Below, piece after piece: positions 708-45,284 of a stretch of 45,284 nucleotides of DNA. Numbering within the stretch: position 1 is the stretch's first letter; each line of letters starts with the position of its first letter. Position numbers and translations under genes: made by a program. The notes beneath the pieces are model-generated. The model had not been told where the DNA came from, made no database searches, and was given only the letters and a program-made list of their open reading frames with translations. Source of the stretch: Candidatus Nealsonbacteria bacterium (GTDB lineage: Bacteria; Patescibacteriota; Minisyncoccia; Minisyncoccales; PWPS01); contig PWPS01000001.1 in the NCBI GenBank assembly GCA_003557065.1, positions 1 through 45,284 on the forward strand, read 5' to 3'.

Positions 708-750
708 ATCTTTAATTGAATATTATCAAAAAAAATGCTCCTATTCAATA

Positions 751-775
751 AAAAAACCATCCGCAAAGATGGTTT
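751..775 (-). terminator. Intrinsic terminator between pilin gene and pilD
   Basis: Minus-strand hairpin CCATC-tttgcg-GATGG, extended by A:T pairs and followed by a T-run (plus strand aaaaaaccatccgcaaagatggttt). It lies about 50 nt after the pilin stop. Confidence 0.45.
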
Positions 776-824
776 CTTTATTACTCTCTAAATTTTTATT
801 AAAACTACTACAACTTTTTAGACC

Positions 825-1307
825 CTAAGTGGTGTCCATGACGTCATCACAATTTGATGCAGTCGAGTCCGGGTCAGTATCTCCCATTTCATGCTCACCC
901 GCGTTACCATCACTGTCGATACAGTAATAAACTACATTATCATCTTCGGAAGGAGCACAAAGAGGTGCCCAAGCCGCATACCTTTGAAAATTGTCGGATA
1001 TGCTTATCTGATACTCCGAATCAACTGCATCCGGAAGATAAGCTACACTACAGGGTGGAATTTGATCCTTGATATTTTCCCATCCGGACGAAGTATCGTA
1101 ATTCTCATAACTACCTCTTCCTCCCAGAGGATCATAGTAATATTGCTCGGCATTACTTCTGATCTGTGACAACTCGGATCTTATCTGTGTATCATAAGCA
1201 CCTTCTCTAGCTCCACTAATCGATACAAAGGCGATACCGGACAAAATTCCGATTATGGCAATAACCACAAGCAGCTCGATCAACGTAAAACCTTTTTGAT
1301 TTTTCAT
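825..1307 (-). CDS. Type IV pilin / pseudopilin with class III signal peptide
   Basis: N-terminus MKNQKG|FTLIELLVVIAIIGILSGIA: short basic leader, Gly-1/Phe+1/Glu+5 cleavage-methylation motif and hydrophobic alpha1 helix. Four Cys in the C-terminal globular part. TAG stop. Confidence 0.92.
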   Translation of the reverse strand: MKNQKGFTLIELLVVIAIIGILSGIAFVSISGAREGAYDTQIRSELSQIRSNAEQYYYDPLGGRGSYENYDTSSGWENIKDQIPPCSVAYLPDAVDSEYQISISDNFQRYAAWAPLCAPSEDDNVVYYCIDSDGNAGEHEMGDTDPDSTASNCDDVMDTT

Positions 1308-1354
1308 AGTGATCTTTTTGTTAATAATTTGACCTTTATTTTATTCTCACTGGA

Positions 1355-1383
1355 AGTATAGTCAAAAAATAAACTTACGTCAA
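1355..1383 (-). promoter_or_regulatory. Candidate sigma70-type promoter for the pilin gene
   Basis: Minus strand reads TTGACG (1383-1378), a 17-nt spacer, then TATACT (1360-1355). It lies about 45 nt upstream of the pilin ATG, in the pilC-pilin gap. Confidence 0.4.
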
Positions 1384-1397
1384 TAAAATTTTATGCC

Positions 1398-2615: not shown

Positions 2616-2616
2616 T

Positions 2617-3684: not shown

Positions 3685-5437
3685 TTTCCTCTTCTTTTTT
3701 TGTTTCTTTTGTAGCTTTAAGAACAACCTCAACCGAGGTATGTCCCTCCAGGGCTTTCATAATGCCGTCTTGTCGCATCGTTATCATCCCCTGTTTATAT
3801 GCTTGCTTTTTTAATGGTTGCTCTCCTTTGTCTTCCAAGACTAAATTAGCCATCTCATCGGTCATCTCCAAGGCTTCATAAATTCCGATTCTTCCCTTAA
3901 ATCCGGTGGATCCGCACTTCTCGCAGCCGACCGGTTTAAAAATTTTAATGTCCGAAAGATTAAGACTTTCTCTGGTTCTCGGAGGGAGTTGCTCTATCTC
4001 ACTCAATATTATTTTTTTTATTCTTTCCTCGGGAACAACTTCTTTCTTACAACCGTCACAAAGTCTCCTGACCAATCTTTGAGCAATAGCCGTATTGAGC
4101 GAAGGGGGAACGAGATAAGGCTTTATCCCCATATCGGTCAATCTGGGAATAACTCCGACCGCATCATTGGTATGCAGTGTGGAAAGAACTATATGACCGG
4201 TAAGAGCAGCGTGAACCGCTAATTCCGCCGTTTCCTGATCACGAATCTCACCGACCATTATGATGTCCGGATCCTGTCTGAGAATTTGTCTTAATCCACT
4301 GGCAAAATCATATCCTATATCATGCTCTATCTGCGACTGATTTACCCCATCGATAAAATACTCCACCGGATCTTCCAATGTCACTATATTAACTTCTTCC
4401 GTATTCAATCTTCTCAGCAAAGAATAAAGTGTCGTCGTCTTACCCGATCCGGTAGGTCCGGTAGCAAGAATCATTCCGGTCGGCCTGTTTACTCCTCTGT
4501 TCACTATGGTCTCGGTCGAGTCTCTCATTCCCAGCTCTTCCAACTCCATCATTCCCTGTTCGGGATCAAGAACTCTTAAAACGACTTTTTCCCCCATGGT
4601 TGTCGGCATGGTGGCAACACGAAAATCAATATCCTTTCCGGCGATTTTTGAAAAGAATCTTCCGTCTTGCGGGAGTCTTCTTTCTTCTATCTTCAAGTTG
4701 GATAAAATTTTAATCCTGGCAACTACGGCCGGGTGTATTTTTAAAGGAAGCACCAATGAGGACCTTAACGCTCCGTCTATCCTGTATCTAACCTCCAACT
4801 TTTCTCTACCGGGCTCCACGTGTATATCCGAAGCTCCTCCCTCTATAGCCTCTTTTAGAATGACCGAAACAACCCTTACGATAGGTGCCTCTTCCGCCAT
4901 TTTCTGAACATTCTCCGTATCTTCTTCATTTATCCTTTTTGCCAACTCCTCTTCTTCTTCCGCCATGGCCCCCAGTGCCGCTCCCGCACCTTTTCTCAAC
5001 TCTCCATACTGACTTAGTATCTCTTCAAAGGTGCTTAGGTTTATTAGAAATATTTTGTAGGAAAACCCACCCCTACGAGAAAGAAATCTGAGCACCTCCT
5101 GAGCTTTCAAATCCTTGGGATAAACCATTCCTATTTCAATCGCATTTTCAGTCTTGTTTAAGGGAACCATTTTGTAATGCTTGGCCGAGTCTTCAGGAAT
5201 AAGGTTCGCTATGTCGGGCAAAACACTACCCAAACGATCAAGATTAACCTCGGGCTTGTAGGTAATATCCAAAATCTCACTTTTTATCCTGAAAAGCTGA
5301 TCTTCCGTAATCGGAATCGATGTATCTTCCATTATAACCTCTTCTTCTTTTCGTTCTCTGCTCTTTTCTTGCAACTCTTCAGCCTTTTCTTCACTTATCA
5401 ATTCCCTTTTTTTGATCTCGTCTATTAAGCTTTGCAT
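3677..5437 (-). CDS. pilB: Type IV pilus assembly ATPase PilB (GspE family)
   Basis: 586 aa. N-terminal T2SSE_N-like region, Walker A GPTGSGKTTT, IIMVGEIRD, and a tetracysteine CDGC..CEKC cluster. Confidence 0.93.
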   Translation of the reverse strand: MQSLIDEIKKRELISEEKAEELQEKSRERKEEEVIMEDTSIPITEDQLFRIKSEILDITYKPEVNLDRLGSVLPDIANLIPEDSAKHYKMVPLNKTENAIEIGMVYPKDLKAQEVLRFLSRRGGFSYKIFLINLSTFEEILSQYGELRKGAGAALGAMAEEEEELAKRINEEDTENVQKMAEEAPIVRVVSVILKEAIEGGASDIHVEPGREKLEVRYRIDGALRSSLVLPLKIHPAVVARIKILSNLKIEERRLPQDGRFFSKIAGKDIDFRVATMPTTMGEKVVLRVLDPEQGMMELEELGMRDSTETIVNRGVNRPTGMILATGPTGSGKTTTLYSLLRRLNTEEVNIVTLEDPVEYFIDGVNQSQIEHDIGYDFASGLRQILRQDPDIIMVGEIRDQETAELAVHAALTGHIVLSTLHTNDAVGVIPRLTDMGIKPYLVPPSLNTAIAQRLVRRLCDGCKKEVVPEERIKKIILSEIEQLPPRTRESLNLSDIKIFKPVGCEKCGSTGFKGRIGIYEALEMTDEMANLVLEDKGEQPLKKQAYKQGMITMRQDGIMKALEGHTSVEVVLKATKETKKEEENE

Positions 5438-5441
5438 TTTT

Positions 5442-6635
5442 TTAATTAATGAGACCTAATTCTTCTATTTTTTCTTCAGCACGCAAATAGAACTCGTTGA
5501 TTTCCCTCCTCAGCTCATTCGGAGTAAATTCTACTTCTTCGTATCTGTTTTTAATTTCTTCCACTTCCTCTCTAAGTAAAGCGTACTCATTTTCCGCTCT
5601 CATTATTATTTCCGGATCATCCAAATCCTCTATCATTTGAAGGAAAGAAGCAAAAGCATTTTCAACCTCTTGGAAAATTTCTTCCGCTTCGTCGAATTCG
5701 GTAAAGTCATCAACTAATTCTTCCAATTTTTTTATTTTTTCTTCTATGTCCGATTCATATTGCCCGATTGATTGCCTTAAAGAAGATACTGTCAGCTCTC
5801 CTCTTGAATATCTTTCTTCGATATCTCTGAACCTTTCTTCGAATTCGGAATAGTTTTCTTCCATTTCACTTCTAATATCTTCCTCTAAAAACTCTTTGAC
5901 TCTCTCCAGGGCTCTATGAAATTCGGTTAATTTTTCCCCGGCTCTCATTAGAAGATTTTCCGCCTCCCTCTCTCCCTCCGTTTGATAATCCTCCAACGTC
6001 GTATCATAATCATCTTTTCCTATTATCACTATATCTCCACGCATCCCTCCCCCGAAAGACGAAAAATAAGAGACCATTCCATCTTCTGCCTTAAATTCGA
6101 ATTTTTCTTCCCTTTTATCCGCTATTTCCCCCGAATCAAACACAATATCTCCAGCACTGTCTTCTATTTTAAAATCATGCTCTTCTCCACTAAAGTTTTC
6201 AATGGTAATCTCATACCATCTCCCTTCAAAAAGAAAAACTTCCGGATTCCTTTCTCCGGCTATTCTGTCAGGAAAAATTCCCGTCCAGCCGTCATCATCA
6301 ACCTTAAAGACAAGGTTAAAATTCTCCCACCACTCTCTCAGACGACTATCCGTCGGTATTCTGGGTGCATGAAAAGGGTTTTCAACCAAAACCTTATCCC
6401 AAAGAAGAAAAGGGGAATCTCCTCTATGGAAAGTATTTAAATTTTGAAAAAAATAACTGTCCAAAAAGACCAGATCTATATTAGGAAATCTCTGCAGGCT
6501 ATGGTCAATCATAATCTCATCATGTTCATAATCGGAAATAAAAACCTCCCAAACCACAAACCCAATTATCGCAACCGTAATCAAAACTACGGTATAGAAA
6601 TATTTTGGATCACTGTTTTTTTTATCCTTGCTCAT
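5442..6635 (-). CDS. Hypothetical membrane-anchored protein in the pilus operon (cupredoxin-like middle, acidic coiled-coil C-terminus)
   Basis: 397 aa, 2 nt after the pilO-like stop and 4 nt before the pilB start. One N-terminal TM helix (YFYTVVLITVAIIGFVVWEVF). A beta-rich middle ends ..WYEITIENFSGEEHDFKIED..VSYFSSFGGGMRGDIVIIG. The C-terminal half is rich in Glu/Asp/Arg heptad-like sequence. I recognise no named family. Confidence 0.7.
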   Translation of the reverse strand: MSKDKKNSDPKYFYTVVLITVAIIGFVVWEVFISDYEHDEIMIDHSLQRFPNIDLVFLDSYFFQNLNTFHRGDSPFLLWDKVLVENPFHAPRIPTDSRLREWWENFNLVFKVDDDGWTGIFPDRIAGERNPEVFLFEGRWYEITIENFSGEEHDFKIEDSAGDIVFDSGEIADKREEKFEFKAEDGMVSYFSSFGGGMRGDIVIIGKDDYDTTLEDYQTEGEREAENLLMRAGEKLTEFHRALERVKEFLEEDIRSEMEENYSEFEERFRDIEERYSRGELTVSSLRQSIGQYESDIEEKIKKLEELVDDFTEFDEAEEIFQEVENAFASFLQMIEDLDDPEIIMRAENEYALLREEVEEIKNRYEEVEFTPNELRREINEFYLRAEEKIEELGLIN

Positions 6636-6637
6636 AT

Positions 6638-7162
6638 TTAATAAGAATAAACTCTAACGGTTACTCTGTAATCCAACGGCTCCCCCCTTTCCCCGGAGCC
6701 TCTCCCCATCGTTATCTCTCTTACGTTCATTATTCTTGCCGAGCTTTTCAGTTCTCTTATGAAATTTTTAAAATTGGAATAAGCCCCTTCGATACTGAAA
6801 TTTATTTCCGTCATTTTAATTTCTACTCTATCGGGATGTGCTCTGGTAGAAAAGTCTCCTATACCACTAACTCTGACACCCGTCCGATAAGAAGCTCTTC
6901 TTATCTCGGCAAAGAGAGATGGAACGTAATGATCGTTCGGAATACCATCTTCGAACTTTCTAACTTCTCCCCGATAATCAATCTTCAAAGCTCCAGCCAT
7001 CGCTTCCATGGTTTGGTTGTAATTTATCATATTCTGCAAGTCAATTTCCTTTATTTCAGCCTTCACCATGGCCTCTCTTAAATCTTGGTATTCGGGCCAT
7101 ATGACCAAACCCATCAAAAGAAAGGATCCGATAAGACAAATTGTAGCTATAATCGGGCGCAT
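6638..7162 (-). CDS. pilO: PilO-like pilus alignment protein
   Basis: 174 aa. N-terminal TM helix, a coiled-coil segment (EYQDLREAMVKAEIKEIDLQN) and a C-terminal alpha/beta domain. Its size, layout and position after the pilN-like gene fit PilO. Confidence 0.65.
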   Translation of the reverse strand: MRPIIATICLIGSFLLMGLVIWPEYQDLREAMVKAEIKEIDLQNMINYNQTMEAMAGALKIDYRGEVRKFEDGIPNDHYVPSLFAEIRRASYRTGVRVSGIGDFSTRAHPDRVEIKMTEINFSIEGAYSNFKNFIRELKSSARIMNVREITMGRGSGERGEPLDYRVTVRVYSY

Positions 7163-7163
7163 T

Positions 7164-8267
7164 TTATTTGAATATCAATGGATCAAAAGTAATATTGAAT
7201 TGAAAACTCACACCTAGGTCTTCTCCTTCTATTTCTCTTATTCCGGATAATACAACCTCTTCAATTGGGTGAATTTTTTCTTTTCCTGCCACCTCGAACC
7301 AATCTTGGTCCAAAAGCTGATGTCCTCTCATTCCTTTCTGAAAAACATAATCCTCTTTTCTTGCGTGACTGAGCAGGGGTAGAGCTTTTTCCCCCTCAAA
7401 GTCTATTCTTTTAGGATCTTCTCCGGAAATGGGACTTTTTCGTAAATTGATTGCATTCTTTACGATAACACTGTTATCCGGATAAATCTCTCTGAGTAGG
7501 GTAAGTTCATTTCCTTCATCGGGTATTCCAAAAATAAACTCTTTCGATCTTGATTCTTCATCATTGTTACTGGTTACTCTGATACCGACCACCTCGCCTC
7601 TGTAATCCTCGGAAAAGCTGATTTTAAAATTTTCATTTTCACCGTCTTCTCCTCCCAAGCTCCTTTTCAAAAGTCTACCACTCATATCAAAAGCAACCCA
7701 ATCAAAATGATCGTATTCCCGTGGATAAGCAACTTCAAATCGATATTCCAACCCTCCTTCATTGTTCCAATTGATTCTTTTTTCTATTATCTGACTTTTG
7801 TCTATCCAACCAAAAATTTCCCTTTCCATGGAAAAATTTTTGAGGATTGAATGTTGTTGCTCCAACGTTCTGAAATTAAGAGTTTCCCCCACCATCGTTA
7901 TCGATCCGGTAGTCAAATTGATGCCCGTAGATTCCAGTCTGGACATCGGATGTGTTGCATTTTCCAAAAAAAGGAAAAAATCATCAACTTTAGCTCTGTT
8001 CCATACCAGATAAGTATAATCCGATATCTTGGCCATATACTCATAAACCAAATCTTGGTTTTTGTTGAAATCCGCCTCTCTCCCCAATCTATCCAATAAT
8101 TCCCTCCTGTTTTCAATCTGAGACTGCAGCTCAATATTCCACTGAGAGATTAATAAATACCCACTAAGACAAAAAAGCAAAAGAATTATCGAGTAATAAA
8201 AAAGAACATCAAAAGAACCGGGAAGGTTAAATGTTTTTTCTTTTTCCGGTTTTATATTTATCGCCAT
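7164..8267 (-). CDS. pilN: PilN-like bitopic protein with a long C-terminal extension
   Basis: 367 aa. Short cytoplasmic N-terminus, TM helix (VLFYYSIILLLFCLSGYLLISQW), then a coiled coil, lying immediately after pilM. About 190 extra residues follow the usual PilN length. Assigned from position and architecture only. Confidence 0.55.
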   Translation of the reverse strand: MAINIKPEKEKTFNLPGSFDVLFYYSIILLLFCLSGYLLISQWNIELQSQIENRRELLDRLGREADFNKNQDLVYEYMAKISDYTYLVWNRAKVDDFFLFLENATHPMSRLESTGINLTTGSITMVGETLNFRTLEQQHSILKNFSMEREIFGWIDKSQIIEKRINWNNEGGLEYRFEVAYPREYDHFDWVAFDMSGRLLKRSLGGEDGENENFKISFSEDYRGEVVGIRVTSNNDEESRSKEFIFGIPDEGNELTLLREIYPDNSVIVKNAINLRKSPISGEDPKRIDFEGEKALPLLSHARKEDYVFQKGMRGHQLLDQDWFEVAGKEKIHPIEEVVLSGIREIEGEDLGVSFQFNITFDPLIFK

Positions 8268-8268
8268 G

Positions 8269-9303
8269 CTAGCTTTTGGAATTTAATCCCTTTATAGCCA
8301 TACCTACGGCCACTGAACAAAGGGGAGAAAGCTCTTTTAGCGCTCCCTCCAAAGAAGAGGGGTATTTTAAATCTCTGAAAGGATTGGCATCATCTATGTC
8401 GAATCCTTCGGATAAAGACTTTTTAATCTCTTTCAACTTGGAAGCTCCGCCCGTAATGTATATCTTGTCTATATTTTTTCCCTCTTCTTTCTGATAACTA
8501 TCACAAATATCTTTTATCTTTTCCGCCAAATCTTCCGAAAGGGATTTTTTAATTTTTTCGGAAGTCTCCGACAGATTTTCTTCCCCTTTATTATAGTTAA
8601 TTTCCGGCAACATATCAAAATCCTCCGTAAAATCCTTACCCGATATTTCAAGACTGTGGCTGTGTTTCGGGATTTTGTCCTCTATTATATTAACCGTAGT
8701 CGACTGATCCCCTATGTCGGAAACTATAATCGTTTTTCCCTCTTTTCCATAAACCTCAGCCAAGCCGAAGGTTCCCGCATCCAGAAGACCCACCTCCAAT
8801 CCCGATTTTTTAGCTATTTTTCTATAGGTTTTAACCGTTTCATTGGGAACAGCCAAAAGTAAAACCTCTACCATTTCACCCTCTTCACCATCTCTCAGTC
8901 CGGTTAATGTCCAATCCAGGGTAACCTCATTAAGTGGAAGGGGGATTCTTTGTCTGGCTTGAAATTGAATAGCCGACTCCACTTCGGATCTTTTCATTTT
9001 GGGAACCTCGAAAGATGTGAAAAAGCTGCTGAAATCGGGGATGGCAAAAACGCTATTTTTAGTTTTTATGTCCGCCTCTTTCAGTATGGCCCGTATGGTG
9101 TCCGAAATCGCATCGATAGAAGATGAAAAAGCTCTTTCGTTTTTGTTTCTAATTTCGGTTCCGGTAACATCCTTGATTGAGGCTATTCCATAGTTTTCCA
9201 GGGTAAAATTATTTCGTTCTCTCGATAGTTCCACCACTTTCACCGATGTTGACCCCACGTCCACACCCAGATACATTTTTGGCTCTTTGGTAAATAGTGA
9301 CAT
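8269..9303 (-). CDS. pilM: Actin-like pilus assembly ATPase PilM
   Basis: 344 aa. N-terminal phosphate-1 motif LGVDVGSTSVKVVEL and a later ITGGASKL motif of the actin/HSP70 fold. First gene of the cluster. Confidence 0.85.
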   Translation of the reverse strand: MSLFTKEPKMYLGVDVGSTSVKVVELSRERNNFTLENYGIASIKDVTGTEIRNKNERAFSSSIDAISDTIRAILKEADIKTKNSVFAIPDFSSFFTSFEVPKMKRSEVESAIQFQARQRIPLPLNEVTLDWTLTGLRDGEEGEMVEVLLLAVPNETVKTYRKIAKKSGLEVGLLDAGTFGLAEVYGKEGKTIIVSDIGDQSTTVNIIEDKIPKHSHSLEISGKDFTEDFDMLPEINYNKGEENLSETSEKIKKSLSEDLAEKIKDICDSYQKEEGKNIDKIYITGGASKLKEIKKSLSEGFDIDDANPFRDLKYPSSLEGALKELSPLCSVAVGMAIKGLNSKS

Positions 9304-17011: not shown

Positions 17012-17419
17012 ATGGAAAATCAGGAAGAAAAAAAAGAGTGGGAAAATCAAAAAATAGAGGAGAAAAGTAAAAAGGGCTGGCTTTCAAAAGAAGGAGAGCT
17101 TGTAGTAGACGTTTATCAAACCGAAGAGAATATCGTAATACAGACGGCAATAGCAGGAATTAAAAAGGATGACTTGGAAATAATAACTGAGAAAGATATG
17201 ATATCAATCAAGGGTGAAAGAGAAAGGAATGAAGAAGAGAAAATAGAAGAGTTTTTTATAGAAGAGTGTTTTTGGGGTCCTTTCTGTAGAGAAATAGTGC
17301 TCCCGGAAGAAACGGATCCTTCCAGAATAAAAGCAACCATGCATCAAGGTATTTTGACCATAAAAGTTCCTCGTATAGAAAGAGAAAAAAGAAGAGAGGT
17401 TGAACTTGAAGAGGAATGA
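17012..17419 (+). CDS. Small heat-shock protein (Hsp20/alpha-crystallin family)
   Basis: 135 aa. Alpha-crystallin core ..VVDVYQTEENIVIQTAIAGIKKDDLEI..ISIKGERE..GILTIKVPR. Its TGA stop overlaps the next ATG (ATGA). Confidence 0.9.
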   Translation: MENQEEKKEWENQKIEEKSKKGWLSKEGELVVDVYQTEENIVIQTAIAGIKKDDLEIITEKDMISIKGERERNEEEKIEEFFIEECFWGPFCREIVLPEETDPSRIKATMHQGILTIKVPRIEREKRREVELEEE

Positions 17420-17949
17420 TTTATCTGCAACTGGCATTGATCTTAGCTTTCTCCTTACTTTTCTTTTTCTTTGCCATAGCTTACGCTCTAATAGGGCTAA
17501 AATCCTTTGTTACCGGGGCTCCCCCGGTTCCATCCCCCAAGAAAGAAATAAAAGCCGCCCTGCGGGCCGTGGGACTGGAAAAAGGTGATTCTTTTTACGA
17601 TCTCGGGTCGGGAACGGGAAGAGTTGTCTTACTTGCTGAAAAGCATGGTGCGAATTCTACGGGAGTTGAGTTCTCGCGCCTGGTGTCCTTTATATCAAAA
17701 ATAAACCTTGGGATAAGGAGATCGAAGTCAAAAATAATAAGGGCTGATTTTTTGAATATGGACTTGAGTGACGCGGATGTTGTCTATATTTACGGATCCA
17801 TCAGATTGATGGAAAGATTGGAAGAGAAGATCAAGAAAGAATCTTTACACTTAAAAGTGGTAAGTTATTGCTTCAGGTTTCCAAATTTAAAGCCGATAAA
17901 GAAAATAAAGACCCCTCTGAAAAAATCGGTTTTCGTTTACAAAATATAA
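17416..17949 (+). CDS. Membrane-anchored class I SAM-dependent methyltransferase
   Basis: N-terminal TM helix, then motif I FYDLGSGTGRVV and an acidic post-I residue (LLAEKHG). Target unknown. Confidence 0.7.
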   Translation: MIYLQLALILAFSLLFFFFAIAYALIGLKSFVTGAPPVPSPKKEIKAALRAVGLEKGDSFYDLGSGTGRVVLLAEKHGANSTGVEFSRLVSFISKINLGIRRSKSKIIRADFLNMDLSDADVVYIYGSIRLMERLEEKIKKESLHLKVVSYCFRFPNLKPIKKIKTPLKKSVFVYKI

Positions 17950-18005
17950 AAAATCGGCTATTCGCCGAATTTAAACTGAAACTCCTATTAAATATAGATT
18001 AATTG

Positions 18006-18089
18006 TGCCGAGGGTGGGACTCGAACCCACAAGCCTTTACGGGCAATAGGCCCTAAACCTACCGCGGTTGCCAATTTCGCCACCTCGGC
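18006..18089 (-). tRNA. tRNA-Leu (anticodon TAG)
   Basis: Acceptor GCCGAGG/CCTCGGC, anticodon stem GTAGG/CCTAT with loop TTTAGGG, long variable arm, T-arm GTGGG-TTCGAGT-CCCAC. Confidence 0.9.
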
Positions 18090-18172
18090 CTGCCAGTATT
18101 CTAATCTTCTCTTAAAATAAAATCAACCCTTCCTTAAATATAAAGAAAGGGCTGATATATCTTTTCCAGCTT

Positions 18173-18499
18173 CTATCCTATCACTAAATTGATAATTGCC
18201 GGAACGGCATAAGCGAAAACCGCTACGAGAACACCGGCGATTCCGAAAGTAATATACTTTTTACCTTTATCGACATTGTCGGGGTTTTGTCCTCCCATGA
18301 GGATCATTGCACCTCCGAGAGTAACAAGACCGACTACGATACCCATCATTAAGTAAAAGACAACCTGAGCAGCTCTGTTTACGGTGTTTATCATGCAAAC
18401 TATTGCCCATGCATCTCCATCCGCTGCTGTTACTGTAGTTCCAGCACCTCCTCCAACTCCTTCATATTCAAGCGCCCTTACAAGAGTACATCCTTCCAT
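18173..18499 (-). CDS. VirB2/TrbC-like two-helix pilin-like protein, paralog 1 (ORF as tracked lacks the signal peptide; see in-frame TGA at 18539-18541)
   Basis: The C-terminal half, MMGIVVGLVTLGGAMILMGGQNPDNVDKGKKYITFGIAGVLVAVFAYAVPAIINLVIG, is near-identical to paralog 2. Upstream in the same frame lies MKKVLIVLALVVAFAGI-TGA-VTLPSNNVEAQEV. The intact form would therefore be 18173-18592 (139 aa). Confidence 0.6.
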   Translation of the reverse strand: MEGCTLVRALEYEGVGGGAGTTVTAADGDAWAIVCMINTVNRAAQVVFYLMMGIVVGLVTLGGAMILMGGQNPDNVDKGKKYITFGIAGVLVAVFAYAVPAIINLVIG

Positions 18500-18662
18500 T
18501 ACTTCTTGAGCTTCAACGTTGTTGGAAGGGAGAGTTACTCAGATACCTGCAAAAGCAACTACCAAAGCTAAAACAATAAGTACTTTTTTCATTTTTCTGT
18601 TTTAGATTTCATCGACCTTTTCTTGCTTTTTATTCTAGCACTTTTTTTTATTCAGTAAAACC

Positions 18663-18689
18663 AAATCCCTCCCGATAAAGGAGGGATTT
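18663..18689 (-). terminator. Intrinsic terminator after pilin-like paralog 2
   Basis: Perfect 10-bp stem AAATCCCTCC/GGAGGGATTT with a 7-nt loop. On the minus strand it is followed by GGTTTT. It lies 22 nt past the stop at 18711. Confidence 0.5.
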
Positions 18690-18710
18690 ATGGCTTTATC
18701 TTTAAGAGGT

Positions 18711-19139
18711 CTATCTCAAAACAAGATTCAGAATGGCCGGAACGGCATAAGCGAAAACCGCTACGAGAACACCAAAAACCGCGAAAGTGATATATTTTTT
18801 ACCTTTTTCTACACTTTCAGGATTTCCTCCACTACCAAGAATCAAGAAACCACCGAAAATCACTAGCGCCACTACGATACCCATCATAATGGTAAAAAGA
18901 ACTTGCGCAGTTCTGTTTATGGTATTTATCATGCACATAACCGCCCACTCTTCTCCTTCGTGGTCCGCACCGGTTCCTTCCGCACCTACGGTATCGTTTT
19001 CACCCGCAGTAATATTTCCGTAGTCAAGTGCTCTAAGCATTCTGCATTGTTGAATAGGAGAATCTTGAGCTCCTACATAAGCAGATGCACCAAGCGTGAA
19101 TGCAATCACCAGCGATAAAGCTAATAATGCTTTTTTCAT
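18711..19139 (-). CDS. VirB2/TrbC-like two-helix pilin-like protein, paralog 2 (intact)
   Basis: 142 aa. Signal peptide MKKALLALSLVIAFTLGASAYVGA, a variable acidic/Gly-rich segment, WAVMCMINTINRTAQV, hydrophobic helix 1, loop GGNPESVEKGKK, and hydrophobic helix 2 ending FAYAVPAILNLVLR. Confidence 0.7.
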   Translation of the reverse strand: MKKALLALSLVIAFTLGASAYVGAQDSPIQQCRMLRALDYGNITAGENDTVGAEGTGADHEGEEWAVMCMINTINRTAQVLFTIMMGIVVALVIFGGFLILGSGGNPESVEKGKKYITFAVFGVLVAVFAYAVPAILNLVLR

Positions 19140-19216
19140 TTTTTCATTTTTTAAGTTTCATCGACCTTTTTTATTACACCTTGGTTAATTCTATCACCTT
19201 TCAAAAAAGCTGCAAC

Positions 19217-19555
19217 TTAACTAAGTACAAATTGAACTACCGCTAAAACCGCATAAGCAAAAAGGGCAATCATAATCCCCACAACTGTCCAGGTTATTAT
19301 GTTTTTTCCTTTTTTAACATTATCAGGATTAATTCCCCCGAACATATAAAAAGCTCCCCCCAAGACAATCATAAATGTAACCAAAGCCAACCCCACCTGA
19401 ATTAAAAAGCGTGTCAAAGCAGCTAAAAGCTCTGGAATGGTATCGTATTGCAAGGGGTTTTCCAAAGGAATATAATCCCCGTTACCGTTAGCCAAAACCA
19501 AAACAGGAATCAGAAGAAATAGTAGCGCCAGTAGTATTTTAGTTTTTTTCGGCAT
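19217..19555 (-). CDS. VirB2/TrbC-like two-helix pilin-like protein, paralog 3 (divergent)
   Basis: 112 aa. Signal peptide MPKKTKILLALLFLLIPVLVLA and the same helix / GGINPDNVKKGK / helix (LFAYAVLAVVQFVLS) layout. It starts 3 nt after the methyltransferase stop. Confidence 0.65.
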   Translation of the reverse strand: MPKKTKILLALLFLLIPVLVLANGNGDYIPLENPLQYDTIPELLAALTRFLIQVGLALVTFMIVLGGAFYMFGGINPDNVKKGKNIITWTVVGIMIALFAYAVLAVVQFVLS

Positions 19556-19558
19556 ATT

Positions 19559-20071
19559 TTATTTCTGATAAATAAAACCGTAATGATGCATTCCGGCTTG
19601 AAATTCATCTTTTAAGATAAAGTCTTTTTCCTCTATTATTCGCTTTAGTTCCTCCGGATCGATTTTTTCGGTTCTGGGACCTATGGGTGATTGGGGTAAC
19701 CATTCCACAACCAACAAGAACCCATCCTTTTTTAATATTCGTTTCGCTTCGTCCATTATTTTTTCTTTGTCCGATACTTGAAAAAGAAAATTTGTCATTA
19801 AAACCAAATCAACTCTATCATCTCTTATACTTAGACTTTTTTCAATATCTTCATTAAGAACTTTCACATTGGCAATCCCTCCTCTATTCAAACGACCCCT
19901 TAAGACAGAGGTCGGTTCTTCCAGAATATCAATTGCATAGACGACACCTTCTTCCAGTTTTTCCGCCAAAGGGATAACCCATCCCCCCGAACCGCAACCA
20001 AAGTCGGCAGCCACCATCCCTTTCGTAAGGGGTAAATCGTCTATTATTTCTTCCGGATTAATAAATTCCAT
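19559..20071 (-). CDS. Class I SAM-dependent methyltransferase (Methyltransf_11/25-like)
   Basis: 170 aa. Motif I VAADFGCGSGGWVIPLA, with post-I and motif II-like segments (DLVLMTNFLFQV). It abuts the gyrA stop with no gap. Confidence 0.8.
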   Translation of the reverse strand: MEFINPEEIIDDLPLTKGMVAADFGCGSGGWVIPLAEKLEEGVVYAIDILEEPTSVLRGRLNRGGIANVKVLNEDIEKSLSIRDDRVDLVLMTNFLFQVSDKEKIMDEAKRILKKDGFLLVVEWLPQSPIGPRTEKIDPEELKRIIEEKDFILKDEFQAGMHHYGFIYQK

Positions 20072-22534
20072 TTAAAAGCAAGTTATTGAAGCTATTTCAT
20101 CATCCTTGCTAAGCTTCATTACTTTAACTCCCTGAGTAACTCTGGAAAGCTTTGATATCTTATCAATGCTGGTTCTTATAACTTTACCTCTTTTAGAAAT
20201 GGAAACCAAGTCTTGATCGGGAGTAACGATTCTGGCAGATATTATTTCACCCACCTTTTTGGGGTTGCTAAGAGTTTTGAGCCCGATCCCTCCTCTTTTC
20301 TGTGGCTTATAACTTCCAATCGGAGTTCTTTTTCCATAACCTTTATTGGTCATTATCAAGACATACTTTTCTTTTTCATCTTTTCTAAAAATACCGACAT
20401 CGGCAACCTTGTCTTTATTTTTCAAATCTATACCCTTGATTCCCATTGCTTGCCTTCCCATCGGTCTCACTTCTTCTTCATCGAATCTTATGGATTTTCC
20501 CTTCCTGGTAACGATTAGGATATCATCATTTCCGGTCGTCTTTCTAACTCTTTTCAGTTGATCGTCATCCTTCAAGCTAAGGGCGATCAATCCCGACCTC
20601 CTGATGTTTTTAAATTCTTCCAAAGGGGTTTTCTTTATCTTTCCGTTTTCGGTAATCATTACCAAATTCTTGATCTCCCCGTCCTTTCCATCCTTATCCA
20701 GAGGGATAACAGCTAAAACGGACTCTTCCGAAGAGAGTTCCAAGAAATTCAAAATTCCTCTTCCTCTGGCCGCTCTGGATCCTTCCGGAACTTTATACAC
20801 CGGAACTCTAAAAACTTTACCCGTGTCGGTAAAAAATAAAAGATCGTCATGAGTATTCGCTTCTATAAAGTGATCTATCACATCGTCTTGAGTTGTTTTC
20901 ATTCCAAGAATTCCCTTTCCTCCCCTCCTCTGTTTTTTGTAGATCGAAGGATTAATTCTTTTTATGTATCCCCCACTGGTAATAGTAACTATGGCTCTTT
21001 CTTGAGGGATTAAATCTTTTTCATTGATATTCTCCAGAGCCATATCGGTTACTTTGGTCCTTCTTTTATCACCGAATTTCTCCTTCATCTCCAATAATTC
21101 TTTCTTGACTTCTTCTTTGATTCTACTCTCACTTTCTAAAATTTCCGTCAACTCTTTTATTATCTTTCTTTTTTCCTCCAATTCATTCTCAACCTCAACC
21201 CTTTCCAACTTGGCCAGCCTTTGAAGTCTCATCATCAAGATCGCGGTAGCTTGGATATCGGTCAATCCATATTCTTTCATTAAGTTATCCTTGGCCTCTT
21301 CTTTATTTTCCGAAGCTTTAATCGTTTCAATTATCTTGTCTATATCAACCAAAGCCTTAAAAAGACCTTCCAGAATATGCGCTCTATCTTTCGCCCTTTT
21401 TAAATCATATTTAATCCTGCGAGTAACGACCTCTATTCGATGATCGACATAATACTCCAATATCTCAACCAGATTAAGAACTCTTGGCTGTATTCCGTCC
21501 ACAAGCGCTATCATATTCAAGTGAAACTTTGTTTGCAACGAACTGTAGTTGTAGAGTCTGTTCAATATTTTTTCCGGATAAGCATTTCTTTTCAAGTCAA
21601 CTGCAACTCTCAATCCATCTCTGTCCGATTCGTCTCTTATATCTTTTACCCCTTCAAGCTTTCCATCTTTAACCAACTTGGCAAATTCTTCAACCATTTT
21701 CGACTTCCTTACCCCGTAAGGTATTTCGGTGATAATAATTTGAGCAAATCCTGATTTTTCATCTTCTATTATTTCAGCCCTACCCCTGACTTTAATACTT
21801 CCCTTTCCTTGTGAGTAAGCCGTTATTATTTGCTCTTTATTAAATATTTCCCCACCCGTAGGAAAATCCGGACCTTGGACAAACTGAAAGAGATCTTCCG
21901 TATCCGCTTCCGGGTTTTCAAGTAGATGAATAGTCGCGTCTATGGTCTCGCCTAAATTATGCGGGGGAATATTGGTCGCCATTCCTACAGCAATACCCAA
22001 TGTTCCATTTAAAAGAAGCTGAGGAACGGGGGAGGGTAATACCGTAGGCTCCCTATTGGTTCCGTCATAGTTGTCGATAAACTCAACCGTATCCTTTTCT
22101 ATATCCTTCAACATAACCTCTCCTATATCAGAAAGTTTCGCTTCCGTGTATCTTTGAGCTCCGGGAGGATCGTCATCTATGGATCCGAAGTTACCTTGAC
22201 CTTTGACCAATGGATATCTCAACGAGAAATCTTGAGCCATCCTAACCATGGAATTATAAACCGCGGAATCTCCGTGAGGATGGTATCTGGCAAGTGTCAT
22301 TCCAACCACACTGGCAGATTTTTTAAATCTTCCACCGGGAGAAAGACCATCTTCTTTCATCGTATAGAGAATTCTTCTATGAACCGGCTTTAAACCGTCA
22401 CGAACATCGGGAAGAGCTCTTCCGACAATAACCGACATCGCATAGTCGATATAAGACTTTTTCATCTCCTCCTCAATATTTCTCGGCTTAACGTAGCCTA
22501 TGTCGTTTTCTTCTTCAAATTCTTTTTCTTCCAT
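20072..22534 (-). CDS. gyrA: DNA gyrase subunit A
   Basis: 820 aa. [24 protein letters not shown], the active-site Tyr context [13 protein letters not shown]-like HPHGDSAVY, and C-terminal beta-pinwheel repeats. Confidence 0.95.
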
Positions 22535-44517: not shown

Positions 44518-44979
44518 ATGCTGGAAAAAAGTGATATAAAAAAGATAGAAGAAATAACAACGGAATTTTTTGAAAAGATAGATTCTGGGATAAGTGCGGA
44601 AGTGGAACAAACGGATGATAATAACGTCGAAATCAATGTTAAGATGGGAAATCCGCAGGTTTTAATCGGAGAGAATGGGCAAACTCTTAAAGGGGTTGAA
44701 AGGCTTCTTAGATTAGCTCTAAGGAACAATGTAGAAAAAAGACTTTATATTGTTCTTGATATTAATGATTATAAAAGGAAAAAGAGAGAATATTTGGAAC
44801 AAAAGGCAAGAGAAGCTGCAGACGAAGTTTCTTTAACCGGAGTTGAAAAAAGGATGCCGGCGCTATCGGCAGCCGAAAGAAGGGTGGTTCATATGGAATT
44901 ACAGAACAGAGAAGATGTGAGAACCGAGAGTGAAGGAAAAGATCCCGAAAGGCAAGTTGTTATCAAGCCGAATGATTAA
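44518..44979 (+). CDS. jag: Jag/KhpB-like RNA-binding protein (KH + R3H domains)
   Basis: 153 aa. KH-like GxxG (LIGENGQTLKGVERLLRLAL) and R3H motif (ERRVVHMELQ). Canonical position after yidC. Confidence 0.85.
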   Translation: MLEKSDIKKIEEITTEFFEKIDSGISAEVEQTDDNNVEINVKMGNPQVLIGENGQTLKGVERLLRLALRNNVEKRLYIVLDINDYKRKKREYLEQKAREAADEVSLTGVEKRMPALSAAERRVVHMELQNREDVRTESEGKDPERQVVIKPND

Positions 44980-45284
44980 TTTATTTTTTTTCGCTCTTTC
45001 AGTTTTCTGATTTCTTCAGGAGTAGAAGTTATTATCTGGTCTTCCGCGTAGGAGGCCAGTATTTTTATAGCAACATGTTTTTTCCCGGCAAAAAATATTC
45101 CCTCTCCGACTTCTCCCTCCAGTAGAATATATTTTTCTTCATCGGTAAGATTAAACGTTTTTTGAACGGTATCTATCACTGCCGATGATTGTTTTAAAAG
45201 AAATCTCAAGGCCGAATTGGTTATTATGGGTTGTCCATATTCCGATCTCATGAAGTCTGCCACATCTTGAGTTATCGTAGTTAC
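44976..45284 (-). CDS. C-terminal fragment of a VirB4/TraE/TcpF-like conjugation-type ATPase (5' end outside the window)
   Basis: The frame stays open to the window edge (..VTTITQDVADFMRSEYGQPIITNSALRFLLKQSSAVIDTVQKTFNLTDEEKYILLEGEVGEGIFFAGKKHVAIKILASYAEDQIITSTPEE..). The pattern TQ..DF....G..I..NS....LL.Q......L...F.L...E...L....RGEGL..AG..H..I...AS..E..I.T resembles the C-terminus of VirB4-family ATPases. The tracked Met at 45263 is an internal GTG. Confidence 0.5.
   Translation of the reverse strand, partial: VTTITQDVADFMRSEYGQPIITNSALRFLLKQSSAVIDTVQKTFNLTDEEKYILLEGEVGEGIFFAGKKHVAIKILASYAEDQIITSTPEEIRKLKERKKIN

What the first reader, a model, noticed from the sequence alone, without database searches (positions are those of the whole stretch)
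17416..20071. Three tandem VirB2/TrbC-like (conjugative-pilin-like) small membrane proteins bracketed by two SAM methyltransferases and co-oriented with gyrA
**Shared architecture.** The ORFs at 18173-18499(+ext), 18711-19139 and 19217-19555 all have a signal peptide, a variable exposed segment, a hydrophobic helix, a short charged loop and a second hydrophobic helix. The C-terminal halves align as:
- P1: ..GGAMILMGGQNPDNVDKGKKYITFGIAGVLVAVFAYAVPAIINLVIG
- P2: ..GGFLILGSGGNPESVEKGKKYITFAVFGVLVAVFAYAVPAILNLVLR
- P3: ..GGAFYMFGGINPDNVKKGKNIITWTVVGIMIALFAYAVLAVVQFVLS

This is the topology of VirB2/TrbC type IV secretion pilins. To my recollection Pfam has a T4SS_pilin family dominated by CPR sequences that looks like this.

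**Recent duplication.** P1 and P2 share an identical 38-nt block (18198-18235 and 18736-18773) and a conserved leader, which implies recent duplication or gene conversion. Their exposed N-terminal segments differ (VGGGAGTTVTAADGD versus NITAGENDTVGAEGTGADHEGEE).

**Unusual context.** There is no VirB6, VirB8 or VirD4 nearby. P3 starts 3 nt after a methyltransferase that itself abuts gyrA, suggesting a gyrA-methyltransferase-pilin transcript. A second, membrane-anchored methyltransferase lies on the other side. The only other T4SS-like piece in the window is the VirB4-like fragment at 44976-45284.

A diversifying family of surface-filament subunits in an episymbiont-like genome is a plausible host-interaction system that is poorly characterised.
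Basis: partly seen in the sequence, partly recalled or inferred. Interest (0 to 1): 0.7.

Follow-up and report, generated by a model that had tools for sequence, protein, structure and literature searches.

The report
Patescibacterial VirB2-like pilin gene array
Three neighbouring small genes in this ultra-small (CPR/Patescibacteria) bacterium encode type IV secretion pilin-like subunits of a family already described in these organisms, so the finding is real and correctly named but is an ordinary member of a known kind.

Summary
On the minus strand lie gyrA, a SAM methyltransferase, and three paralogous genes for small proteins with a signal peptide and a two-helix hairpin.

**Family.** P3 passes Pfam's own cut-offs for T4SS_pilin (PF18895) and TrbC/VirB2 (PF04956). 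P1 and P2 fall just below the cut-off, but 123 of 126 of their relatives hit PF18895.

**Context.** The contig is chromosomal and lies near oriC. It most resembles Candidatus Nealsonbacteria genomes from soda-lake sediment. A VirB4 C-terminal fragment sits at the contig end beside jag-yidC-rnpA-dnaA, the published position of the Patescibacterial T4SS.

**Already described.** VirB2-like pilin arrays of 2-11 genes are reported in 383 Patescibacteria assemblies (PMC12102498). One such array is essential in Southlakia epibionticum (PMC10633639).

**New details:**
- A pilin pair is conserved downstream of gyrA in at least 10 related genomes: a short type A, and a type B with a Cys-bracketed β-domain.
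- Both methyltransferases are missing in one relative, so a functional link to the pilins is weak.
- P1 is an extra type B copy. Its leader carries a TGA, where an otherwise identical JGI contig has GGA.
- The P1-P2 duplication is old (dS about 1.1, dN/dS 0.26). The 38-nt identical block looks like gene conversion.

Interest is low to moderate.

The parts
19217..19555 (-). P3, 'type A' VirB2-like prepilin (112 aa). It has a signal peptide, a short N-terminal segment with the motif (I)PLENPLQYD, and a two-helix hairpin with a KKGKN loop. Its ATG lies 3 nt after the stop of the upstream methyltransferase.
   Evidence: Pfam PF18895 33.9 bits and PF04956 30.4 bits, both above the curated cut-offs. 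AF2 model: pLDDT 80.6, helices 40-72 and 77-111. Orthologs occupy the same position in L002, L004, L005, L007-L011 and L013.
18711..19139 (-). P2, 'type B' VirB2-like prepilin (142 aa). It has a signal peptide, a small acidic β-domain bracketed by the conserved Cys32 and Cys69, and a two-helix hairpin with an EKGKK loop.
   Evidence: PF18895 24.8 bits, below the cut-off of 26.6. 123 of 126 relatives hit PF18895. AF2 model: pLDDT 88.7, β-strands at 31-52, helices 65-101 and 107-141. Cys69 is invariant and Cys32 is >=90% conserved in 126 sequences.
18173..18592 (-). P1, a second type B prepilin gene (139 codons from the ATG at 18592). In this window it is interrupted by TGA at codon 18 (18541-18539). 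NCBI calls only the 108-aa remainder from the internal Met (18173-18499).
   Evidence: Translation. JGI contig L001 matches window 18482-19382 at 900 of 901 nt; the single difference is window 18541, which gives GGA (Gly) instead of TGA. Homologs have Gly at that position.
18198..18235 (-). 38-nt block in the TM2 coding region of P1, identical to 18736-18773 in P2. Probably a short gene-conversion tract.
   Evidence: Identity confirmed. Column-shuffle test P = 0.0011: 12 consecutive codons carry no synonymous change, whereas 17 of the other 40 identical-residue codons do.
19188..19215 (-). Promoter-like element upstream of P2: TTGCAG, 16 nt, then an extended -10 (TGATAGAAT).
   Evidence: Read directly from the sequence. 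It was not called by the consensus scan. The same arrangement precedes the type B gene in all related loci.
19162..19170 (-). Conserved 5'-leader motif AAAAGGTCG, 20-30 nt upstream of the P2 ATG. The same motif lies upstream of P1 at 18613-18621.
   Evidence: The core AAGGTCG lies just upstream of the second pilin gene at both window copies and in 9 of the related loci that include that region. Its function is unknown.
18632..18659 (-). Promoter-like site upstream of P1 (TTTACT, 16 nt, TAGAAT, with TG).
   Evidence: Consensus scan.
18662..18690 (-). Terminator-like hairpin plus T-run after P2.
   Evidence: Scan: 12-bp stem with 5 GC pairs.
18122..18156 (-). Terminator-like hairpin plus T-run after P1.
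   Evidence: Scan: 14-bp stem.
19559..20071 (-). Soluble class I SAM methyltransferase (170 aa), tightly packed between gyrA and P3. A conserved neighbour; a functional link to the pilins is unproven.
   Evidence: Methyltransf_31/11/25, E about 1e-16 to 1e-17. No NCBIfam equivalog is reached. Present in L002, L004, L005, L007-L010 and L012, absent in L013.
20072..22534 (-). gyrA, the conserved upstream anchor of the pilin locus.
   Evidence: 820-aa ORF. 53-84% identical to gyrA in the related loci, where the gene carries Pfam DNA_topoisoIV and DNA_gyraseA_C.
18005..18089 (-). tRNA-Leu(tag), the conserved downstream boundary of the pilin array.
   Evidence: ARAGORN and Rfam. In the same position in L002 and L004.
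44979..45284 (-). C-terminal 102 codons of a VirB4/TraC-type ATPase gene that runs off the contig end, beside jag-yidC-rnpA-dnaA-dnaN. Presumed edge of the T4SS machinery cluster that would use the pilins.
   Evidence: Pfam P-loop_TraG, weak. 822 homologs, the best at 80% identity and E = 7e-44, several named VirB4 or TraC by their sources. Relatives carry PrgI (VirB3-like) and the rest of VirB4 immediately upstream.

Best explanation
The three genes encode prepilins of the Patescibacterial VirB2-like family (Pfam T4SS_pilin, PF18895).

**Proposed mechanism**
1. Each precursor is exported by Sec. Its leader is cut after an A-x-A-like site (inferred).
2. The mature protein sits in the membrane as an α-helical hairpin, with the Lys-rich loop (KGKK or KGKN) on the cytoplasmic side.
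3. The VirB4-powered T4SS extracts it. The VirB4 gene ends at the contig edge next to dnaA.
4. The subunits polymerise into a pilus or conduit that contacts the host cell on which this ultra-small bacterium lives. In that filament the Lys loop would face the lumen and the N-terminus the outside, by analogy with solved F- and T-pili.

**Two subunit types, conserved as a pair**
- Type A (P3) is short and translationally packed behind gyrA and the methyltransferase.
- Type B (P2, P1) carries an N-terminal acidic β-domain closed by a conserved Cys-Cys pair. It has its own promoter-like element, a conserved leader motif and a terminator, as expected for an abundantly made, surface-exposed major subunit.
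- P1 is a lineage-specific extra type B copy. In this assembly it carries a nonsense SNP in its leader; an intact allele exists in the same environment.

**What is shown and what is inferred**
- Shown: family membership, architecture, synteny, the SNP, and VirB4 on the same contig.
- Inferred: leader cleavage, the disulfide, pilus assembly, the host-contact role, and the division of labour between types A and B.
For: **Family and fold**
- P3 exceeds the curated cut-offs of both PF18895 and PF04956.
- P2 vs P3, E = 2e-13.
- 6058 representative clusters match the type B profile at E <= 1e-3. Most top hits are full-length matches of 135-170 aa, and 123 of 126 hit PF18895.
- Each protein has three hydrophobic segments.
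- AF2 gives high-confidence hairpins, plus a β-domain in P2.
- Cys counts in relatives are overwhelmingly even: 2, 4 or 6 in 111 of 132. Cys69 is invariant and Cys32 is >=90% conserved.
- The best, though non-significant, PDB fold match of P3 is the Aeropyrum pernix conjugation pilin 8dfu. The A. tumefaciens T-pilus 8exh ranks 41.

**Machinery and context**
- A VirB4 C-terminus lies at 44979-45284. PrgI and VirB4 lie beside jag-yidC-rnpA-dnaA in relatives.
- The pilin pair is conserved downstream of gyrA in L002, L004, L005, L007-L010 and L013. L011 has the same pair next to hsp20-prsW.
- Promoter, leader motif and terminator flank the type B genes.

**Literature**
- VirB2-like pilins were found in 1,948 Patescibacteria assemblies, with 441 arrays of 2-11 genes, and the T4SS lies near dnaA (PMC12102498).
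- A pilin array is essential in S. epibionticum (PMC10633639, PMC12857230).
Against: - P1 and P2 alone do not reach the PF18895 cut-off.
- A profile of the family shows no detectable similarity to A. tumefaciens VirB2 (hhalign probability 0.1) or to any PDB sequence.
- Foldseek gives no significant hit, because helical hairpins are generic.
- The pilin genes are about 25 kb from virB4. No VirB3, VirB6 or VirB8 gene is in the window.
- No pilus of this kind has been visualised in any Patescibacterium, according to the reviews read (PMC12857230, PMC11665869).
- P1 in this assembly would lack a leader.
Confidence: 0.75

Rival explanations
1. The pilins and the flanking methyltransferases form a functional module. 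The soluble methyltransferase co-transcribed with P3, or the membrane-anchored lysine-methyltransferase-like enzyme on the other side, methylates the pilins (for example the cytoplasmic KGKK loop) before assembly.
For: - gyrA, the methyltransferase and type A pilin are packed within 0-30 nt in the window and in L002, L004, L005 and L007-L010. A 32%-identical methyltransferase still follows gyrA upstream of a pilin array in L012, where gyrA is only 53% identical.
- The second methyltransferase has an N-terminal TM helix. It hits DOT1 above the Pfam cut-off (27.5 vs 23 bits) and an archaeal protein-lysine N-methyltransferase model far below its cut-off (42.7 vs 200 bits, E = 5.6e-11).
- All the pilins have a Lys-rich loop.
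Against: - L013 keeps gyrA-pilin-pilin-hsp20 with neither methyltransferase. L011 also lacks the second one.
- The second methyltransferase is convergent, lies beyond a tRNA gene, and overlaps the hsp20 stop. It therefore belongs to the prsW-hsp20 unit.
- No methylation of VirB2-type pilins is known (my own knowledge).
- Dense gene packing is normal in these small genomes.
Confidence: 0.08
2. The type B copies form a variation system. P1 and P2 exchange sequence by gene conversion and are switched on and off (the P1 nonsense allele), changing the exposed loop to follow hosts or escape phages.
For: - The 38-nt identical tract is longer than chance (P = 0.0011).
- The Cys-Cys segment is the most divergent part (dN 0.45 vs 0.21 in the hairpin), and its length varies from about 30 to 55 aa among relatives.
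- TGA and GGA alleles occur in two assemblies that are otherwise identical over 901 nt.
- Copy number varies: L009 has an independent third copy.
- The literature suggests that array diversity helps adaptation to different host strains (PMC12102498).
Against: - dN/dS is 0.20-0.28 in every segment, so there is no positive selection signal. The copies are old (dS about 1.1).
- The conversion tract lies in the conserved TM2, not in the variable loop.
- The nonsense site is not in a repeat or homopolymer, so it is not a phase-variation switch. It may be an assembly or sequencing difference.
- No silent cassettes were found in the window.
Confidence: 0.12
3. They are not filament subunits but small integral membrane proteins with another role. 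They could be static parts of the T4SS channel, or unrelated hairpin proteins such as holins or bacteriocin immunity proteins.
For: - A two-helix hairpin is a generic fold. The Foldseek top hits are ATP synthase subunit c, CHMP4B and similar proteins.
- There is no detectable similarity to A. tumefaciens VirB2.
- The genes are far from virB4.
- No pilus has yet been seen in Patescibacteria (PMC12857230).
Against: - P3 passes the curated TrbC/VirB2 and T4SS_pilin thresholds.
- There is no holin, immunity or phage family hit.
- The only other weak NCBIfam hit with a related annotation is a pilin-like conjugal transfer protein of mycoplasma ICEs.
- The cleavable leader, conserved extracytoplasmic Cys pairs and large N-terminal display domains in relatives (for example 527 aa with 52 Cys in L014) fit an exposed polymer subunit better.
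- Fused multi-hairpin proteins exist.
Confidence: 0.1

Closest known systems
VirB2-like pilin arrays of Patescibacteria (Quinonero-Coronel et al. 2025, PMC12102498; essential pilin series in the Southlakia epibionticum ML1 T4SS locus, Wang et al. 2023, PMC10633639)
   Same: - Same Pfam families (PF18895, PF04956).
- Tandem array of 2-11 divergent pilin genes. Here there are 3, at 33-60% identity.
- Patescibacterial chromosome, with virB4 beside dnaA/dnaN/rnpA.
- No relaxase or coupling protein seen in the window.
   Different: - The array is about 25 kb from virB4, not inside the T4SS cluster. The paper reports this for roughly 40% of pilin-bearing assemblies.
- It sits at a conserved gyrA-(methyltransferase)-pilinA-pilinB-tRNA-Leu locus.
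- P1 and P2 are 60% identical, slightly above the 54% maximum within-array identity the paper reports.
VirB2/TrbC/TraA conjugative pilins of diderm T4SS (A. tumefaciens T-pilus, PDB 8cue/8exh; F-pilus TraA)
   Same: - Cleavable leader, two hydrophobic helices joined by a short basic loop, small size.
- P3 passes the PF04956 cut-off.
- The T-pilus chain appears among the weak fold matches.
   Different: - No detectable profile similarity of the type B family to A. tumefaciens VirB2.
- The host is a monoderm with an MPF-FATA-like machine (PMC12102498).
- Type B adds a disulfide-bracketed β-domain.
- No sign of cyclisation or a TraX-type acetylase was tested.
- No VirB5 tip pilin was found.
Archaeal Ced/Ted conjugation-like pili (Aeropyrum pernix pilin, PDB 8dfu)
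   Same: Best structural match of the P3 model: TM 0.62 on the target, 73 columns, rmsd 3.1 Å. It is likewise a VirB2-like hairpin working in a cell without an outer membrane.
   Different: The match is not significant (E = 1.6). There is no sequence similarity, the domain of life differs, and that system imports DNA.
Mbov_0395 family pilin-like conjugal transfer protein of mycoplasma ICEs (NCBIfam NF045849)
   Same: A small hairpin protein from a monoderm conjugation system. Weak hits for P2 and P3 over the hairpin (E = 5e-3 to 7e-3).
   Different: Scores of 16 bits against a cut-off of 40, so these are not members.

Membership tests
Pfam PF18895 T4SS_pilin | HMM score at or above the curated gathering score (26.6 bits) | tested here: met
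   P3 scores 33.9 bits. This holds for P3 only.
Pfam PF18895 T4SS_pilin | The same threshold for P1 and P2 on their own | tested here: not met
   P2 scores 24.8 bits and P1 (108-aa form) 17.5 bits, both below 26.6. Indirect support: 123 of 126 relatives of P2 hit PF18895 at E <= 1e-3, and P2 vs P3 gives E = 2e-13. P1 and P2 are therefore divergent members by transitive homology.
Pfam PF18895 T4SS_pilin | Leader peptide plus a hairpin of two hydrophobic helices joined by a short Gly/Lys loop | tested here: met
   Hydropathy. AF2 helices 65-101/107-141 in P2 and 40-72/77-111 in P3. G-G...KGK columns are conserved.
Pfam PF04956 TrbC/VirB2 pilin | HMM score at or above the gathering score (27.9 bits) | tested here: met
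   P3 scores 30.4 bits over profile positions 11-94 of 98. P1 and P2 give no hit.
Pfam PF04956 TrbC/VirB2 pilin | Detectable similarity to a structurally solved VirB2 (A. tumefaciens) | tested here: not met
   hhalign of the type B profile against VirB2 (the sequence was verified against PDB 8cue) gives probability 0.1. A PDB profile search returned 0 hits.
Pfam PF04956 TrbC/VirB2 pilin | Fold match to solved conjugative pilins | tested here: inconclusive
   P3's top hit is the A. pernix conjugation pilin 8dfu (E = 1.6, TM 0.62); the T-pilus 8exh ranks 41. P2's hits are only generic hairpins. Nothing reaches E <= 1e-3.
T4SS pilin (functional class) | A VirB4-type ATPase and channel genes in the same genome | tested here: met
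   A VirB4 C-terminus lies at 44979-45284. Relatives have PrgI (VirB3-like) plus VirB4 at that position. The rest of the cluster lies beyond the contig end and was not seen for this genome.
T4SS pilin (functional class) | Polymerises into an extracellular pilus | not testable with these tools
   This needs microscopy or biochemistry. No multimer prediction tool was available.
Patescibacterial VirB2 array (PMC12102498) | 2-11 pilin genes in tandem, or separated by one gene, in a Patescibacteria genome | tested here: met
   Three adjacent pilin ORFs. The closest genomes are Candidatus Nealsonbacteria and other Patescibacteria MAGs.
Holin / bacteriocin immunity / phage small membrane proteins | Match to a holin, immunity or phage family model | tested here: not met
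   No such Pfam hit, no NCBIfam hit and no PHROG hit at E <= 0.01.
Type IV pilus (T4P) pilins | N-terminal class III leader / N-methylation motif (PF07963) | tested here: not met
   P1-P3 have no N_methyl hit. The true T4P pilin of this contig is at 825-1307, within a separate PilBCMOT cluster.

The most novel reading that the evidence does not exclude
The conserved pair at the gyrA locus is a two-component filament system that is genetically uncoupled from the T4SS machine.
- A plain type A subunit would act as base or primer.
- A separately transcribed, highly expressed type B subunit would form the shaft. Its disulfide-stapled, fast-evolving β-cap would be the host-recognition surface.
- Extra type B copies (P1) would be swapped in or silenced at population level.
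- A conserved 5'-leader motif (AAAAGGTCG) would control type B expression.
- The neighbouring methyltransferases might modify the Lys loop.

None of this is excluded by the data, and none of it is shown.
Probability: 0.1. Interest if true: 0.6.

Novelty: new member of a known kind. Interest (0 to 1): 0.3.

Why it matters
Patescibacteria make up a large share of bacterial diversity and live attached to host cells. Their T4SS and its pilin array are essential in the one species tested, yet what the system does is unknown.

This locus adds a clean example from the Parcubacteria/Nealsonbacteria side:
- a stable, vertically inherited pilin pair away from the machinery genes;
- a small, confidently modelled, Cys-bracketed exposed domain that could guide antibody or binder design, or host-range hypotheses.

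It does not change the current picture.

Tried and rejected
- **Alternative genetic code for the in-frame TGA of P1.** Rejected: long genes are intact in table 11, and TGA ends 5 of 41 ORFs.
- **P1 as a fixed pseudogene.** Weakened: an otherwise identical JGI contig has GGA at that codon.
- **Recent duplication.** Rejected: dS about 1.1.
- **Positive selection on the loop.** No support: dN/dS 0.20, with dS saturated.
- **PDB profile search.** Zero hits.
- **hhalign against A. tumefaciens VirB2.** Nothing.
- **Foldseek on both models.** No significant hit.
- **Exact-sequence look-up of P3.** Not on record.
- **Full-length VirB4 relatives.** Not obtained. The best 120 hits listed were short, at most 179 aa, and the contigs L018-L022 have fragmented gene calls.
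- **uORF reading of the conserved leader motif.** Considered and dropped. The ATG within it is present only in the two window copies, not in relatives.

Full report
**1. Observation**

The minus strand carries, in order:
- gyrA, 20072-22534;
- a 170-aa SAM methyltransferase, 19559-20071, whose ATG directly follows the gyrA stop;
- P3, 19217-19555, whose ATG lies 3 nt after the methyltransferase stop;
- P2, 18711-19139;
- P1, 18173-18499 as listed.

tRNA-Leu(tag) follows at 18005-18089. Each protein has three hydrophobic segments: an N-terminal leader and two long helices. P2 and P3 align over the hairpin at 38% identity (E = 2e-13). P1 and P2 are 60% identical. A profile built from the family finds exactly these three ORFs in all six frames of the window. 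The 38-nt blocks 18198-18235 and 18736-18773 are identical.

Three details needed correction.
- **P1's leader is interrupted.** P1's real start is the ATG at 18592 (MKKVLIVLALVVAFAGI*VTLPSNNVEAQEVMEGC...). The leader is interrupted by an in-frame TGA at 18541-18539. The window uses TGA as a normal stop (5 of 41 ORFs), and long genes are intact under table 11, so this is not a recoded genome.
- **The second methyltransferase is only geometrically adjacent.** This gene (17416-17949) lies on the plus strand and is convergent. It is separated from P1 by the tRNA gene and overlaps the stop of hsp20.
- **The VirB4-like fragment is on the minus strand.** It spans 44979-45284 and is the C-terminal end of a gene that runs off the contig.

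**2. What the proteins are**

- P3 passes the curated thresholds of both Pfam T4SS_pilin (PF18895, 33.9 vs 26.6 bits) and TrbC/VirB2 (PF04956, 30.4 vs 27.9 bits).
- P2 (24.8 bits) and P1 (17.5 bits) hit only PF18895, below its threshold.
- A profile of P1/P2-like sequences finds 6058 representative clusters at E <= 1e-3 and 360 at E <= 1e-10. Most are 135-170 aa and match end to end. Of 126 such sequences, 123 hit PF18895.
- No holin, immunity or phage family matches. The only other weak NCBIfam hit with a related annotation is a pilin-like conjugal transfer protein of mycoplasma ICEs.

AlphaFold2 models:
- **P2** (126-sequence alignment, mean pLDDT 88.7): leader helix, a small β-domain at residues 31-61, and two long helices at 65-101 and 107-141.
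- **P3** (mean pLDDT 80.6): leader, a disordered linker, and helices at 40-72 and 77-111.

Comparisons with solved structures were weak:
- Foldseek against the PDB gives no significant match for either model.
- P3's top hit is the Aeropyrum pernix conjugation pilin 8dfu (E = 1.6, TM 0.62). The A. tumefaciens T-pilus ranks 41.
- A profile-to-sequence comparison with A. tumefaciens VirB2 found nothing. I recalled that sequence from memory and verified it against PDB 8cue.
- A PDB sequence search with the family profile also found nothing.

Membership in the VirB2 superfamily therefore rests on the HMM results for P3 and on P1/P2's homology to P3. It does not rest on fold comparison.

**3. Two subunit types**

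Alignment with relatives separates two types.

- **Type A (P3-like, 103-129 aa).** It has a short N-terminal segment with a conserved (I)PNP(L/V)(R/K/Q)(F/Y) motif.
- **Type B (P1/P2-like, 131-154 aa).** After the leader comes (M)E-x-C-x-(L/I)-V-R, then a variable acidic Gly/Asp/Glu/Thr-rich segment of about 30-55 residues, then W-(A/G)-x-x-C-(M/L/V)-I-N, then the hairpin.

The second Cys is invariant and the first is >=90% conserved across 126 sequences. In the wider family, Cys counts are almost always even: 2, 4 or 6 in 111 of 132 proteins. This points to extracytoplasmic disulfides. I infer that the two Cys staple the β-domain seen in the model. I could not measure the Cys-Cys distance because model coordinates are not exposed.

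**4. Genomic context and conservation**

The contig is chromosomal and lies close to oriC. It carries dnaN, dnaA, rnpA, yidC, jag, many tRNAs, aminoacyl-tRNA synthetases and a complete type IV pilus cluster. The closest genomes are Candidatus Nealsonbacteria MAGs with soda-lake sediment isolate names, plus other Patescibacteria (lineage). An identical P2 occurs in JGI sample 3300000563, contig SL_3KL_010_SED.

- **Conserved gene order.** S1, Lactamase_B_3, gyrA, methyltransferase, pilin A, pilin B, then convergently methyltransferase 2, hsp20, prsW, valS and tsaD. This order appears in every relative whose contig covers it: L002, L004, L005 and L007-L010, with gyrA about 70-84% identical. tRNA-Leu(tag) follows pilin B in the two relatives scanned, L002 and L004.
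- **More distant genomes.**
  - L013 (gyrA 61% identical) keeps gyrA, pilin, pilin and hsp20 but has neither methyltransferase.
  - L012 (gyrA 53% identical) has gyrA, a methyltransferase homolog, an extra gene, and then four pilin genes, one of them a fused double pilin.
  - L011 has the pilin pair next to hsp20 and prsW.
- **Conclusions from synteny.** The pilin pair is an old, vertically inherited chromosomal locus. The methyltransferases are frequent neighbours but dispensable ones.
- **Rate of evolution.** The pilins (46-55% identity to orthologs) evolve faster than gyrA (80-82%) or hsp20 (74-77%), and about as fast as the methyltransferases (50-61%).
- **Copy number.** Most relatives have one type B gene. 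The window has two, and L009 has an independent extra copy.

**5. The VirB4 fragment**

The VirB4 fragment has 822 homologs. The best reaches 80% identity (E = 7e-44), and several are named VirB4 or TraC by their sources. In relatives the gene sits beside jag, yidC, rnpA, rpmH, dnaA and dnaN. It is preceded by a PrgI (VirB3-like) gene, and further upstream lies a protein with a weak pilin-like N-terminus. This is the arrangement published for Patescibacteria, including the location near dnaA (PMC12102498).

**6. Expression signals**

- Type A is packed behind gyrA and the methyltransferase, with no terminator-like site between them.
- Each type B gene is followed by a terminator-like hairpin (18690-18662 and 18156-18122).
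- Each type B gene is preceded by a TTGCA-like -35 element, an extended -10 (TGnTAnAAT), and a motif AAAAGGTCG lying 20-30 nt before the ATG. The same signals precede the second pilin gene in nine relatives: L002, L004, L005, L007-L011 and L013.
- I infer that type B is transcribed on its own, probably strongly. The role of the leader motif is unexplained.

**7. P1, duplication and gene conversion**

- **The nonsense codon is a single-base difference.** JGI contig L001 equals window 18482-19382 at 900 of 901 nt. The single difference is position 18541, which reads GGA (Gly) where the window reads TGA. Homologs have Gly there. An intact 139-aa P1 prepilin therefore exists. The stop in the window is either a segregating nonsense allele or an assembly difference. 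The 108-aa NCBI protein (P0003) is a truncated call.
- **The duplication is old.** P1 vs P2 gives dS about 1.1 and dN/dS 0.26 overall. The ratio is 0.20 in the Cys-Cys segment (dN 0.45, dS saturated) and 0.28 in the hairpin. There is no signal of positive selection.
- **The identical block looks like gene conversion.** The 38-nt run in TM2 is longer than chance (P = 0.0011). It covers 12 codons without a synonymous change, whereas 17 of the other 40 identical-residue codons carry one. This fits a short gene-conversion tract.

**8. Mechanism**

The best-supported reading is that these are subunits of the Patescibacterial T4SS-associated pilus.

1. The precursor is exported by Sec and its leader is cleaved after VGA/VEA/VLA (inferred).
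2. The mature hairpin is stored in the membrane with the Lys-rich loop inside.
3. The VirB4 machine extracts it and polymerises it.
4. In the filament, the loop faces the lumen and the N-terminal domain the outside. This follows from solved F- and T-pili (established knowledge; the analogy is not tested here).

Relatives carry N-terminal domains ranging from nothing to about 450 Cys-rich residues, and fused chains of 2-7 hairpins. This fits a polymerisation module that displays variable surfaces. Which cargo the system moves, and whether a pilus forms at all, is unknown even in the cultured models (PMC11665869, PMC12857230).

**9. Comparison with what is known, and novelty**

- Quinonero-Coronel et al. 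2025 searched 3,035 Patescibacteria genomes with PF04956 and PF18895. They found VirB2-like pilins in 1,948 assemblies that also have VirB4, near virB4 in 1,135 of them. They also found 441 arrays of 2-11 pilin genes in 383 assemblies, with a mean identity of 25% and a maximum of 54% (PMC12102498).
- Wang et al. 2023 showed that the pilin series in the S. epibionticum T4SS locus is essential (PMC10633639).

The window's array is therefore a new member of a known kind. Text searches of the 2025 paper for 'gyrA', 'disulfide' and 'Nealsonbacteria' returned nothing. The following details did not appear in the passages I read of the other papers:
- the conserved gyrA-linked A+B pair;
- the Cys-bracketed β-domain;
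- the type B promoter and leader motif;
- the nonsense polymorphism and conversion tract of P1.

These are modest additions.

**10. Verdict**

The claims of recent duplication, diversifying selection, unusual context and a methyltransferase link are not supported or are weak. Interest 0.3.

Noticed in passing
window 19162-19170 and 18613-18621 (minus strand); also L002, L004, L005, L007-L011, L013: A conserved motif AAAAGGTCG lies 20-30 nt upstream of the ATG of every second (type B) pilin gene, downstream of an extended -10 promoter-like element. It is too far from the ATG for an ordinary Shine-Dalgarno site. Its function is unknown.
   Followed up: partly
window 18541 (minus-strand T of TGA): This is the single-base difference from JGI contig 3300000563 SL_3KL_010_SEDDRAFT_10193222, which matches at 900 of 901 nt. 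It turns Gly18 (GGA) of the P1 leader into a stop. NCBI therefore annotates a 108-aa protein that starts at an internal Met.
   Followed up: yes
P0014 (606 aa), P0021 (820 aa), P0081 (348 aa); L012:5047-5673: Single polypeptides made of 2-8 tandem pilin hairpin units. The three inspected (P0014, P0081 and the L012 ORF) start with one leader. These are 'poly-pilins' among relatives in public metagenomes.
   Followed up: partly
L014:1740-3320: A 527-aa protein with a Cys-rich N-terminal region (52 Cys in the whole protein) fused to a C-terminal pilin hairpin. It suggests the hairpin can display large surface domains.
   Followed up: no
window 17416-17949 (+): A membrane-anchored methyltransferase. 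It hits DOT1 above the Pfam cut-off (27.5 vs 23 bits) and an archaeal protein-lysine N-methyltransferase model far below its cut-off (NF041081, E = 5.6e-11, 42.7 vs 200 bits). Its start overlaps the hsp20 stop. It is conserved next to hsp20-prsW in close relatives but absent in L011 and L013.
   Followed up: partly
window 1-9303 (minus strand): A complete type IV pilus gene cluster: prepilin peptidase fragment at the contig start, N_methyl pilin at 825-1307, PilC, PilT-like and PilB ATPases, PilO, PilM, and two ORFs (5442-6635, 7164-8267) with no Pfam hit.
   Followed up: partly
window 40000-45284: GC content drops from about 0.39 to about 0.30 across the dnaN-dnaA-rnpA-yidC-jag region, with a 400-nt intergenic gap between dnaA and rnpA (43085-43498). 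This is probably the oriC region. No rpmH ORF was checked.
   Followed up: no
L018-L022 (JGI samples 3300018772, 3300019140 and others): Relatives' contigs show VirB4, dnaA, yidC and rnpA each split into several short gene calls. This suggests frameshift-rich assemblies rather than real pseudogenes.
   Followed up: no
L005:5200-5577 and L008:1215-1601: Some type A pilins have acquired four Cys around the conserved IPNP motif (DCNPC...VCIPNPLRFC). Disulfide-stapled N-termini therefore arise in both pilin types.
   Followed up: no
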